DNA of 4,370 nucleotides, from IMG/VR virus record IMGVR_UViG_2671181064_000008; one strand, written 5' to 3'. Below, one piece after another: positions 1-4,370 of this stretch; position 1 is the stretch's first letter, and each line of letters begins with the position of its first letter. The DNA comes from a virus. Lineage: Duplodnaviria > Heunggongvirae > Uroviricota > Caudoviricetes. Made by a program: the position numbers and the translations under genes. Under the pieces are notes generated by a model that saw only the letters and a list, made by a program, of their open reading frames with translations, had not been told where the DNA came from and made no database searches.

Positions 1-41
1 GCTTTGAACTCTTTAGAGTAACGTTGGGTTTTTCTGCTCAT
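1..41 (-). CDS. IS3-family transposase OrfA, N-terminal fragment (partial, runs off the window)
   Basis: Minus-strand ATG at 41..39 preceded by GAAGGAG with a 6-nt spacer. Translation MSRKTQRYSKEFK... matches my recollection of the IS600 OrfA N-terminus. Confidence 0.6.
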   Translation of the reverse strand, partial: MSRKTQRYSKEFK

Positions 42-105
42 TATTAGCTCCTTCTGATGCCATTCTATTTCAGGAAGGAGTGTCCGTTAAACTCAGGCTA
101 CCTCA
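1..105 (-). mobile_element. Left end of an IS3-family insertion sequence (IS600-like): terminal inverted repeat, 5' leader and start of orfA; the element continues beyond the window start
   Basis: Reverse complement of 105..77 is TGAGGTAGCCTGAGTTTAACGGACACTCC: it starts with TGA and has GGACAC at positions 21-26, the same layout as the IS3 left inverted repeat. A minus-strand ORF starts just inside it. The exact boundary at 105 is inferred from this motif. Confidence 0.7.
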
Positions 106-1230: not shown

Positions 1231-1271
1231 NNNNNNNNNNNNNNNNNNNNNNNNNNNNNNNNNNNNNNNNN
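1231..1271. other. Run of 41 N (masked or gap); content unknown
   Basis: Read directly. Confidence 1.
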
Positions 1272-2271: not shown

Positions 2272-2958
2272 ATGACCCCAATAAACATATTTATGACAGT
2301 TGCTGATTTCAAACGGCCCAAATTGGAGCTCCCAAACGGGGCAAACAAACTACTACTGCACTCTTGCTGTGCTCCATGTTCCGGTGAGGTGATGGAGGCG
2401 CTTCAGGCCTCGGGAATCGACTACACCATCTTTTTCTACAACCCGAACATTCATCCTCAGAAAGAGTATTTAATTCGTAAGGATGAGAATATTCGCTTTG
2501 CTGAACAACACGGCGTGCCGTTTATTGATGCTGATTACGACACAGACAACTGGTTTGAACGAGCCAAAGGAATGGAATGGGAGCCCGAACGAGGGATCCG
2601 TTGCACCATGTGTTTTGACATGCGTTTTGAGCGGACAGCGCTGTACGCCGCTGAAAATGGTTTCAGTGTGATCAGCAGTTCACTGGGCATTTCACGCTGG
2701 AAAAATATGCAGCAGGTTAACGACTGTGGGCGGCGAGCCGTCGCGCATTATCCGGGCATGGTGTACTGGGATTATAACTGGCGCAAGCAGGGCGGCTCGT
2801 CCCGTATGATTGAAATCAGCAAGCGCGAAAAATTCTATCAGCAGGAATATTGTGGCTGTGTGTATTCTCTGCGCGATACCAATCTACACCGCAAATCTCA
2901 GGGACGCCCTCTTATCAAAATTGGTCAACTCCACTACGGTAAAGAAGAGAAGGAGTGA
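2272..2958 (+). CDS. queH: Epoxyqueuosine reductase QueH-like protein (DUF208 family, Fe-S enzyme of queuosine tRNA modification)
   Basis: Translation contains [39 protein letters not shown], the conserved Cys motifs and overall pattern I recall for QueH/DUF208. Start is uncertain (ATG 2272 or 2293), neither with a clear Shine-Dalgarno. Confidence 0.75.
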
Positions 2959-3117
2959 TTTTATGGGGCACCTTTCTGATTGATTTCATATTGGCGAGGT
3001 AAGTAGAATGACTGCGGGTGCTTGAGGCTATCTGCTTCAGGCATGAACACCAAAAGGCAGATAGAGAAAAGCCCCAGTTAACATTACGCGTCCGGCAAGA
3101 CGCTTAACATTAATCTG

Positions 3118-3434
3118 NNNNNNNNNNNNNNNNNNNNNNNNNNNNNNNNNNNNNNNNNNNNNNNNNNNNNNNNNNNNNNNNNNNNNNNNNNNNNNNNNNN
3201 NNNNNNNNNNNNNNNNNNNNNNNNNNNNNNNNNNNNNNNNNNNNNNNNNNNNNNNNNNNNNNNNNNNNNNNNNNNNNNNNNNNNNNNNNNNNNNNNNNNN
3301 NNNNNNNNNNNNNNNNNNNNNNNNNNNNNNNNNNNNNNNNNNNNNNNNNNNNNNNNNNNNNNNNNNNNNNNNNNNNNNNNNNNNNNNNNNNNNNNNNNNN
3401 NNNNNNNNNNNNNNNNNNNNNNNNNNNNNNNNNN
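3118..3434. other. Run of 317 N (masked or gap); content unknown
   Basis: Read directly. Confidence 1.
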
Positions 3435-3457
3435 CATCCTCAACGCACCCGCACTTA

Positions 3458-3501
3458 ACCCGCCCATCGCTGTGATCTCTCAGCGTTTCGGCGGGTTTTT
3501 T
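3458..3501 (+). terminator. Compound rho-independent terminator (+ strand)
   Basis: Outer stem acccgcc (3458-3464) pairs with ggcgggt (3490-3496); inner stem cgctg (3468-3472) / cagcg (3481-3485); followed by a T run (3496-3501). T run lies 3' on the + strand only. Confidence 0.5.
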
Positions 3502-3521
3502 GTTGTTTATTTCCGGTGAAT

Positions 3522-3549
3522 TTGATTCGCGCACCTTCGCAGATAGAAT
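3522..3549 (+). promoter_or_regulatory. Candidate sigma70 promoter for the downstream small-ORF pair
   Basis: TTGATT (3522-3527), 16-bp spacer, TAGAAT (3544-3549); about 80 nt upstream of ATG 3631. Sequence-only prediction. Confidence 0.35.
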
Positions 3550-3630: not shown

Positions 3631-3918
3631 ATGAAAATCGAAGAATTGCGTGAAATTTTTAGTGAAAATGGCCTCTATGCTGTGCGCGTTGAGAATGGAG
3701 CGATTGTCAGCCATTGCCGCATTAGATGTTTGCAATCTCAACAAAGGAAGAGCGGTGCTGTGTTATTTTATTTTTGTAATGGACTTCTGACGGACGGTTT
3801 TATTTTGCGTGAGGACGAATTTGTCACATCATTACGGGTTTTGAAAGAGATTGGTTTTAAGGCTGGTTTTCTGCTTTTGCTGAAGAATAAACTCATCTAC
3901 AATCTTGAGCAGGATTGA
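3631..3918 (+). CDS. Hypothetical protein, 95 aa, AT-rich, no recognised family
   Basis: ATG 3631 with GGAAGG 9 nt upstream; uninterrupted ORF; no competing ORF on either strand; downstream of the promoter-like element. Confidence 0.4.
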   Translation: MKIEELREIFSENGLYAVRVENGAIVSHCRIRCLQSQQRKSGAVLFYFCNGLLTDGFILREDEFVTSLRVLKEIGFKAGFLLLLKNKLIYNLEQD

Positions 3919-3956: not shown

Positions 3957-4310
3957 ATGGCACATATACAACTGGTCAAACAAACCTCTTCCGGATTACT
4001 TCTCCCGGCGACGCCGGAGAGTTGCGATTTTCTGCATCAAATCAAAATAGGTGAGTGGATACACGCAGACTTTAAGCGTGTGTGTAACTACGCATTCCAC
4101 AAGCGTTTTTTCAAACTCCTGCAACTGGGTTTCGATTACTGGACTCCGGTCGGTGGGGCGATCACGCCTCGCGAACGAAAACTGGTGTCCGGTTTCGTTG
4201 ATTACCTGTGTGAATCAGTAGGCCGGGAACATACGCCAGCTCTGAGCGAAGCCGCAGAGCAATTGAGGTGTACTGGCAATAGCGGACACTACCATTTGTT
4301 CTTTTTTTAA
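3957..4310 (+). CDS. Hypothetical prophage protein, 117 aa as written; may be truncated by a frameshift in a T7 tract at its 3' end
   Basis: ATG 3957 with GGAG 7 nt upstream (the TTG at 3915 in the ORF track lacks an RBS). Ends TAA 4308-4310 immediately after T7 (4301-4307). One extra T would keep the frame open to the window end. Confidence 0.45.
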   Translation: MAHIQLVKQTSSGLLLPATPESCDFLHQIKIGEWIHADFKRVCNYAFHKRFFKLLQLGFDYWTPVGGAITPRERKLVSGFVDYLCESVGREHTPALSEAAEQLRCTGNSGHYHLFFF

Positions 4311-4370
4311 GCAGCCATCTGATGATATTTTTCCCTGAAGGCTGCCGGGGAGATATTCCCCAGACGAGAG

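What the first reader, a model, noticed from the sequence alone, without database searches (positions are those of the whole stretch)
2959..3534. Masked 317-nt block between queH and a strong terminator: possible non-coding RNA or tRNA locus that cannot be read
The intergenic region after queH has no plausible protein on either strand in the readable flanks. The N run is followed about 25 nt later by a compound hairpin with a T tract, a textbook intrinsic terminator for a + strand transcript. That fits a short structured RNA or tRNA(s) ending here, though it could equally be an ordinary gap or a masked repeat. A tRNA next to a queuosine enzyme would be a neat translation-tuning module, but that is speculation.
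Basis: partly seen in the sequence, partly recalled or inferred. Interest (0 to 1): 0.45.

Follow-up and report, generated by a model that had tools for sequence, protein, structure and literature searches.

The report
Masked hok/sok toxin-antitoxin locus in prophage
The unreadable block between queH and the terminator almost certainly hides the core of an ordinary, well-known hok/sok toxin-antitoxin module of a lambdoid prophage, not a tRNA or a new RNA gene.

Summary
There is a 317-N run at 3118-3434, no ORF in the readable flanks, and a compound hairpin with a T tract at 3457-3501.

The interpretation (tRNA or a stand-alone structured RNA) is not supported. The readable flanks are the two ends of one hok-type toxin mRNA:
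- The left flank (3016-3116) matches Rfam sok/hok-leader RF01794 positions 1-83 and stops at the mask.
- The right flank holds the fold-back (fbi) element 3438-3450, which pairs with the mRNA 5' end (tac, 3016-3027), followed by the terminator.

A viral contig (L004) is 100% identical to all 4012 readable bases, including both IS600 junctions. It has 277 nt where the window has 317 N. That segment holds the sok promoter, the mok start, a 51-aa Hok toxin (Pfam HOK_GEF, 81 bits) and a 3'-UTR hairpin. Four other sequences carry the same segment. There is no tRNA and no tandem repeat.

The only small RNA is Sok, on the minus strand (about 3137 to 3061); its 3' 57 nt are readable.

The N-run lengths are not faithful: 41 N stands for 303 nt, and 317 N for 277 nt.

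hok/sok loci in lambdoid prophages are already described (hokW-sokW of Sp5). Verdict: already known, low interest.

The parts
2980..3009 (+). Promoter-like site TTGATT-18 nt-TAGAAT for the hok mRNA; it predicts a start near 3016
   Evidence: 9 of 12 matches. The Rfam model's position 1 aligns at 3016, 7 nt after the -10 hexamer. Function is inferred, not shown.
3016..3027 (+). tac element (GGGTGCTTGAGG): the 5' end of the hok mRNA and the 5' partner of the long-range closing stem
   Evidence: It pairs with 3438-3450 in the MFE fold of the reconstructed mRNA. It is the best duplex partner in all 9 family members tested.
3016..3116 (+). hok mRNA 5' leader: two hairpins, the second being the complement of the Sok terminator hairpin
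   Evidence: Rfam RF01794: 58.7 bits, E = 1.1e-11, model positions 1-83 of 157, ending at the mask. The fold has z = -4.1. The full-length match in the unmasked relative scores 117 bits.
3061..3117 (-). Readable 3' two-thirds of the Sok antisense RNA: hairpin 3117-3075, then GGGGCUUUUCUCU. The 5' ~20 nt and the promoter lie inside the mask (to about 3137 and about 3172)
   Evidence: Homology to the annotated K-12 sokC and sokB ncRNAs. Hairpin fold -17.5 kcal/mol, z = -2.8; -32.7 kcal/mol, z = -4.7 for the full Sok equivalent.
3118..3434 (+). N run. Inferred content (277 nt in relatives): rest of the leader with the sok promoter on the - strand, the mok start (mRNA +114), the invariant TAGCCTCTTA box, the hok ORF (51 aa), and a 3'-UTR hairpin
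   Evidence: L004 is 100% identical over all readable bases and has 277 nt here. The identical segment is in L001, L002 and L005, and L003 overlaps its last 231 nt. Hok scores PF01848 81.1 bits. This is not readable in the window itself.
3438..3450 (+). fbi (fold-back inhibitory) element CCTCAACGCACCC, complementary to tac with one bulged C
   Evidence: The pattern CCTCAANGCACCC occurs once in the window, and 0 of 200 shuffles give any match.
3457..3501 (+). Intrinsic terminator of the hok mRNA: compound hairpin 3457-3497 and T tract 3496-3501
   Evidence: -22.8 kcal/mol, z = -4.9. Most relatives have the simpler AACCCGC-TTCG-GCGGGTT form, so the inner hairpin is an insertion in the loop.

Best explanation
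Window 2980-3501 is a hok/mok/sok type I toxin-antitoxin locus sitting between queH and the nin-region genes of a lambdoid (Rac/Sp5-like) prophage fragment. The N run hides its central 277 nt or so.

Mechanism, from the established hok/sok model:
1. A stable mRNA of about 445 nt starts near 3016 and ends at the terminator at 3457-3501.
2. In the full-length form, the 5' tac element (3016-3027) pairs with the 3' fbi element (3438-3450). This locks the mRNA in a closed fold that is neither translated nor bound by Sok.
3. Slow 3' exonucleolytic trimming removes fbi. The mRNA then refolds so that mok, and hok coupled to it, can be translated.
4. The unstable antisense Sok RNA is made from the - strand (about 3137 to 3061). 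It pairs with the mok start region, and RNase III destroys the duplex.
5. If Sok supply stops, through loss of the element, transcription shut-off or prophage induction, the 51-aa Hok peptide is made and depolarises the inner membrane.

Shown here: the leader, tac/fbi pairing, the Sok 3' hairpin and the terminator in the window itself; the ORFs and sok promoter in relatives with identical flanks. Inferred: that the window's own masked bases are the same, and all the dynamics and the toxicity.
For: - Rfam RF01794 matches 3016-3116 (58.7 bits, model 1-83 of 157) and is cut by the mask. The unmasked relative gives 117 bits full length.
- L004 matches all 4012 readable bases at 100%, including both IS600 junctions, and carries 277 nt in place of the mask. 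L001, L002 and L005 carry the identical 277 nt, and L003 its last 231 nt.
- That segment encodes a 51-aa Hok (PF01848, 81.1 bits) and an in-frame 70-aa Mok-type ORF. PGAP annotates it as hokD.
- The reconstructed mRNA folds at -189.6 kcal/mol, z = -8.5, with 3016-3027 paired to 3438-3450.
- The complement is unique in the window, with 0 of 200 shuffles matching.
- The 5'-3' duplex is the best partner in all 9 family members tested, with compensated differences in K-12 hokB and two plasmid hok loci.
- Sok was placed by alignment to annotated sokC and sokB.
- Phage records annotate the same locus as MokW, HokD or gef.
- The mechanism and the prophage context are published: PMC9841398, PMC8621323, bioRxiv 10.1101/2025.08.07.668861.
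Against: - The window's own central bases cannot be read.
- The N run is 317 long, not 277. None of the 91 fetched loci that have the identical left anchor and a recognisable right anchor shows 317; the range is 266-277.
- The window's Rfam score is 0.3 bits under the gathering score, because half the model is masked.
- The sok promoter (TTGCCT-17-TAACCT) is too weak a consensus match to be called by the scan.
- No expression or toxicity data exist for this allele.
Confidence: 0.93

Rival explanations
1. The N run is a genuine assembly or scaffold gap of estimated size at a repeat, and the source genome has a disrupted hok locus there (for example an IS element or a 40-nt indel within hok). 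That would be like the IS-inactivated hok loci of E. coli K-12.
For: The N-run lengths disagree with every relative: 317 against 277, and 41 against 303. The window is bracketed by IS600 copies, so the host is IS-rich. K-12 hokC has IS186 just downstream. Both hidden segments occur 2-3 times in the closest complete genomes, the kind of repeat that breaks short-read assemblies.
Against: L004 and L005 share the window's exact IS600 junction and have the intact 277-nt segment. L003, with the same junction, reads 231 nt into the block without interruption. A wrong gap-size estimate explains the lengths just as well, without any disruption.
Confidence: 0.05
2. One reading: the block holds one or more tRNA genes or a stand-alone structured non-coding RNA on the + strand that ends at the terminator, possibly linked functionally to queH.
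For: A strong terminator lies downstream, and there is no ORF in the readable flanks. Related prophages do carry tRNA genes, but about 2.2 kb further downstream.
Against: Both flanks belong to one hok mRNA. ARAGORN finds nothing in the window or in the unmasked equivalent. Rfam finds only RF01794. There are no tandem repeats. The unmasked segment is filled by the mok/hok ORF.
Confidence: 0.01
3. The stretch was masked deliberately by whoever prepared the data (the collection notes say a few stretches are masked), with run lengths unrelated to the true lengths, and the underlying sequence is simply the ordinary hok core. This concerns the origin of the Ns only, so it is compatible with the best explanation; its confidence is scored on that separate question.
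For: Both N runs replace well-annotated sequence in relatives that are 100% identical. The lengths are changed in opposite directions, 303 to 41 and 277 to 317. The genome-contig tool description mentions masked stretches.
Against: Nothing distinguishes this from a scaffold gap with the tools available. The exact source record was not found in genome contigs or metagenome contigs.
Confidence: 0.4

Closest known systems
hokW-sokW of Sakai prophage 5 (Sp5) and the hok loci of Stx2-converting and other lambdoid phages (annotated MokW, HokD, gef)
   Same: The same kind of element in the same kind of place, the early/nin region of a lambdoid prophage. Identity to Stx2 phage records is 92% at nucleotide level across the whole hok mRNA (e.g. 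AP004402.1). Both encode a 51-aa Hok. For hokW-sokW, Sok antitoxin activity partly dependent on RNase III and Hfq has been shown experimentally (PMC8621323).
   Different: It is a different allele. This one has an extra inner hairpin in the terminator loop and lies directly downstream of queH. Nothing has been tested experimentally for this allele.
hok/sok of plasmid R1 (parB), the founding member of the family
   Same: The same architecture: tac/fbi closing stem, mok/hok overlapping frames, antisense Sok over the mok start, and a terminator after fbi (PMC9841398). Plasmid hok loci of this type pass the same Rfam model at about 105 bits and show the same 5'-3' duplex.
   Different: The sequence is very diverged; blastn aligns only about 45-80 nt around the mok/hok start. 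mok is in frame with hok here, as in the chromosomal loci. The host replicon is a prophage rather than a conjugative plasmid, so the likely role is prophage maintenance, help with lysis, or abortive infection, rather than plasmid stabilisation.
Chromosomal hokC/mokC/sokC (gef) and hokB/mokB/sokB of E. coli K-12
   Same: The leader is nearly identical to hokC's (GGGTGCTTGAGGCT...). The Hok peptide is very similar by eye. The Sok position was taken from these annotated ncRNAs.
   Different: K-12 hokC has IS186 inserted just downstream of the ORF and has lost the fbi region. The window's locus keeps fbi and the terminator. The Sok hairpin here carries a 16-nt insertion relative to the Rfam consensus.

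Membership tests
[quoted passage not shown] | hok mRNA 5' leader matching the family covariance model | tested here: met
   Window 3016-3116: 58.7 bits, E = 1.1e-11, model positions 1-83 of 157. This is 0.3 bits under the gathering score only because the rest of the model is masked. The relative with identical flanks scores 117 bits over positions 1-157.
[quoted passage not shown] | Long-range tac/fbi pairing between the mRNA 5' end and a 3' element just upstream of the terminator | tested here: met
   Both elements are readable in the window: 3016-3027 pairs with 3438-3450 (12 bp, one bulge) in the MFE fold. The complement is unique, with 0 of 200 shuffles matching. The duplex is conserved, with compensated changes, in hokB and the plasmid loci.
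[quoted passage not shown] | Small hydrophobic Hok/Gef toxin ORF (about 50 aa), in the window's own sequence | not testable with these tools
   The position is inside the N run 3118-3434.
[quoted passage not shown] | Hok/Gef toxin ORF and overlapping mok frame, in relatives with identical flanks | tested here: met
   L004 12024-12179 encodes 51 aa, PF01848 81.1 bits against a cut-off of 22. A 70-aa in-frame Mok-type ORF starts at 11967. PGAP annotates hokD.
[quoted passage not shown] | Antisense Sok RNA overlapping the mok start, with its own promoter and terminator hairpin | tested here: inconclusive
   The 3' hairpin and U tract are readable on the - strand at 3117-3061 and align with annotated sokC and sokB. 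The 5' end and the promoter (TTGCCT-17-TAACCT in relatives) are masked, and the consensus scan does not call that promoter.
[quoted passage not shown] | Toxicity of Hok and neutralisation by Sok (functional definition) | not testable with these tools
   This needs experiments. It has been shown for the related hokW-sokW (PMC8621323).
   No tRNA in the window or in the unmasked equivalent L004 11700-12400. The Rfam E-value scan finds only sok.
   TRF finds no array in L004 11700-12400 at minimum score 30.

The most novel reading that the evidence does not exclude
The N run length is faithful, and the source carries a hok allele with about 40 extra nucleotides between the leader and fbi. Such an allele is not seen in any of the 91 fetched loci that have the identical left anchor and a recognisable right anchor. 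Alternatively, the conserved queH-hok adjacency reflects a functional coupling rather than mere synteny in lambdoid prophages.
Probability: 0.04. Interest if true: 0.2.

Novelty: already known. Interest (0 to 1): 0.08.

Why it matters
It matters little beyond correct annotation. hok/sok is the textbook type I toxin-antitoxin system, and its enrichment in Escherichia prophages is documented. A lambdoid-prophage member (hokW-sokW) has been characterised experimentally.

The useful lessons are methodological. The readable flanks of a masked block can identify what the block contains: here the 5' leader and the 3' fold-back element of one mRNA. And N-run lengths in this data set should not be read as true lengths.

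Tried and rejected
- Fixed-offset comparison with the two 100%-flank E. coli genomes failed because the N runs do not preserve length. Aligning each readable segment separately solved it.
- I searched for the exact source with the IS600 junction 40-mer. There was nothing in genome contigs or metagenome contigs. Three viral contigs share the junction. None could be shown to be the source, but L004 is identical over all readable bases.
- I looked for any relative with the flanks 317 nt apart. There is none among the 91 anchored loci with a recognisable right anchor (266-277). Listed E. coli hok loci with diverged flanks span roughly 247-338.
- A column-based covariation count on a 9-sequence MAFFT alignment was abandoned because MAFFT misaligned the fbi of the plasmid sequences. 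It was replaced by direct duplex computation.
- Within the 89 close viral-contig loci, tac and fbi are almost invariant and show only G-U-compatible single changes. That set gives no double compensatory evidence.
- The simple terminator and promoter scans call neither the compound terminator nor the sok promoter.
- tRNA, tandem-repeat and other Rfam readings were rejected.

Full report
**1. Observation**

The window has two N runs: 1231-1271 (41 N) and 3118-3434 (317 N). queH is confirmed by Pfam PF02677 at 220.6 bits and ends at 2958. No ORF of 40 aa or more lies wholly in the readable flanks 2959-3117 and 3435-3534. The long minus-strand 'ORFs' listed there only exist by running through the Ns.

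It has an 8-bp outer stem and a 5-bp inner stem at 3457-3497, followed by TTTTTT at 3496-3501. It folds at -22.8 kcal/mol, z = -4.9, with 0 of 200 shuffles as stable. The simple terminator scan missed it only because the scan allows loops of 3-8 nt.

**2. What the readable flanks say**

An Rfam E-value scan of the whole window gives one hit, RF01794 ('sok antitoxin', a model that in fact covers the hok mRNA leader in the sense orientation). It lies at 3016-3116 on the + strand, 58.7 bits, E = 1.1e-11, model positions 1-83 of 157, and it stops exactly at the mask. ARAGORN finds no tRNA.

A promoter-like site TTGATT-18-TAGAAT at 2980-3009 would start transcription near 3016, which is model position 1.

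On the right of the mask, CCTCAACGCACCC (3438-3450) is complementary to the first 12 bases of that transcript, GGGTGCTTGAGG (3016-3027), with one bulged C. The pattern occurs once in the window and in none of 200 shuffles. This is the tac/fbi long-range stem, the hallmark of hok-family mRNAs (PMC9841398). The two flanks are therefore the 5' and 3' ends of a single hok-type mRNA.

**3. What is under the mask**

The left flank plus the queH 3' end matches two complete E. coli genomes at 100% (FDAARGOS_943 and 944). In both, PGAP annotates 'type I toxin-antitoxin system toxin HokD' in the interval corresponding to the mask.

Segment-wise BLAST shows 99.8-99.9% identity on both sides of the second mask. 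It also shows that the N runs do not keep length: the references have 303 nt where the window has 41 N, and 277 nt where it has 317 N.

The right end of the window diverges from these genomes after 4263. A 40-mer across that junction retrieved three viral contigs. One of them, L004 (IMGVR_UViG_2671180821_000008), is 100% identical to all three readable segments, 4012 bases in total, including both terminal junctions. It is unmasked.

The 277-nt segment at L004 11956-12232 is identical in L001, L002 and L005. L003, which has the same junction, overlaps its last 231 nt.

That segment contains the following:
- The rest of the leader, giving a full-length RF01794 match of 117 bits in L001.
- An ATG at mRNA +114 that opens a 70-aa Mok-type frame.
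- In the same frame, a 51-aa Hok: MKQQKAMLIALIVICLTVIVTALVTRKDLCEVRIRTGQTEVAVFVDYESRK. It scores PF01848 81.1 bits against a cut-off of 22.
- A GC-rich 3'-UTR hairpin.

There is no tRNA, no tandem repeat and no other Rfam family.

**4. Structure**

The reconstructed 447-nt transcript folds at -189.6 kcal/mol, z = -8.5, with 0 of 100 shuffles as stable. In the MFE structure, window 3016-3027 pairs with 3438-3450.

I tested nine family members: the window equivalent, five diverged viral-contig alleles, two plasmid hok loci that pass RF01794 at about 105 bits, and K-12 hokB. In every one, the best duplex partner of the first 14 nt anywhere in the mRNA is an element just upstream of the terminator. 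Its energy is -21.5 to -24.9 kcal/mol, against -12.7 to -17.6 for the next-best site.

The paired sequences differ in a compensated way:
- Window: GGGUGCUUGAGG / CCUCAA(C)GCACCC
- K-12 hokB: GGGUGCCUGAGA / UCUCA(U)GGCACCC
- Plasmids: GGCGCUUGAGGC / GCCUGAAGCGCC or GCCGCAAGCGCC

Among 89 close alleles the elements are nearly invariant. Most of the few substitutions are G-U compatible, and the bulged base varies C/T/A.

Folded alone, 3016-3117 pairs the tac bases with a stretch immediately downstream. That matches the published metastable co-transcriptional hairpin.

**5. The antisense RNA**

K-12 sokC is annotated antisense to hokC mRNA positions +44 to +102, overlapping the mokC start codon by 9 nt. 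Alignment of sokC and sokB with the minus strand of the window equivalent places Sok from window-equivalent 3137 (masked) to 3061, about 77 nt.

Its terminator hairpin (3117-3075) and the GGGGCUUUUCUCU tail are readable. The full Sok equivalent folds at -32.7 kcal/mol, z = -4.7.

The putative sok promoter in relatives is TTGCCT-17-TAACCT, ending 6 nt before the SokC-equivalent 5' end. It lies inside the mask and is too far from consensus for the scan to call.

**6. Mechanism**

This follows the established hok/sok model (PMC9841398, and the Gerdes-laboratory papers cited there).
- The full-length mRNA is closed by tac/fbi. In that state the mok Shine-Dalgarno sequence is sequestered, so it is neither translated nor bound by Sok.
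- Slow 3' trimming removes fbi and the mRNA refolds. It becomes translatable, and at the same time a target for Sok.
- RNase III cleaves the Sok-mRNA duplex.
- When the unstable Sok is no longer replenished, Hok is made and kills the cell by damaging the membrane.

For the related lambdoid locus hokW-sokW, loss of sokW RNA on mitomycin C induction raises HokW and doubles phage release (PMC8621323). A recent survey finds hok enriched about four-fold in prophages (bioRxiv 10.1101/2025.08.07.668861).

For the window, the RNA elements are shown. The ORFs and the sok promoter are shown only in identical-flank relatives. The dynamics and the biological role are inferred.

**7. Why Ns, and why the wrong length**

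This is unresolved. Both hidden segments occur 2-3 times in the closest complete genomes, and the window is bracketed by IS600 copies. That fits a short-read scaffold with gaps of estimated size at repeats.

Deliberate masking by the data provider fits equally well. The source record was not found.

A real disruption of hok in the source, such as an IS insertion, cannot be excluded. It is unlikely, because contigs that share the window's exact IS600 junction have the intact segment.

**8. Comparison and novelty**

The same locus is annotated in published phage genomes as MokW, HokD, gef 'phage maintenance protein' or 'host killer protein', at 83-92% nucleotide identity. The family, its RNA switch and its presence in lambdoid prophages are all established.

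The allele-level peculiarities are minor variation:
- An extra inner hairpin in the terminator loop.
- A 16-nt insertion in the Sok hairpin relative to the Rfam consensus.
- A position directly downstream of queH. This junction is present at 80% or more coverage in 852 of 5426 complete E. coli genomes.

Verdict: already known, low interest. The tRNA or novel-ncRNA reading is rejected.

Noticed in passing
window 1-104 and 4264-4370: Both window ends are termini of IS600 copies (1266-nt element, 99.8% identical to annotated IS600). The window is a prophage fragment bracketed by two IS600 elements. The right-hand one interrupts the DUF1367-family gene that starts at about 3957.
   Followed up: partly
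window 1231-1271: The first N run (41 N) stands for 303 nt of the 3' part of the ydaV (DnaC-like ATPase) gene in every relative. Taken at face value, the 41-nt length would frameshift ydaV. N-run lengths in this window are therefore not reliable.
   Followed up: yes
window 2272-2958 (queH) with 2959-3117: An epoxyqueuosine reductase QueH (PF02677, 220.6 bits) is encoded in a lambdoid prophage directly upstream of hok. The queH 3' end plus hok leader is found at 80% or more coverage in 852 of 5426 complete E. coli genomes, so the adjacency is common synteny. Why a prophage carries queH was not examined.
   Followed up: no
L002 6348-6658 (about 2.2 kb downstream of the window's hok locus, outside the window): Related prophages carry a tRNA cluster Ile-Arg-Thr-Gly after the DUF1133 gene. 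In L001 an IS1A lies just upstream of it.
   Followed up: no
window 3465-3489: The window's hok terminator has about 21 extra nt forming an inner hairpin inside the loop. Most relatives have AACCCGC-TTCG-GCGGGTT. A few other alleles (L035, L056, L067) carry a different inner hairpin at the same place.
   Followed up: partly
window 3522-3549 and 3631-3918: A second TTGATT-16-TAGAAT promoter-like site lies just after the hok terminator, upstream of a 95-aa ORF with no Pfam match.
   Followed up: no
L004 mRNA position about +129 (masked in the window, equivalent to about 3144-3155): The box TAGCCTCTTA is invariant in all nine diverged hok mRNAs aligned. It is also the second-best duplex partner of the 5' tac element. 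That fits the published tac/ucb stem of the processed, translatable mRNA.
   Followed up: partly
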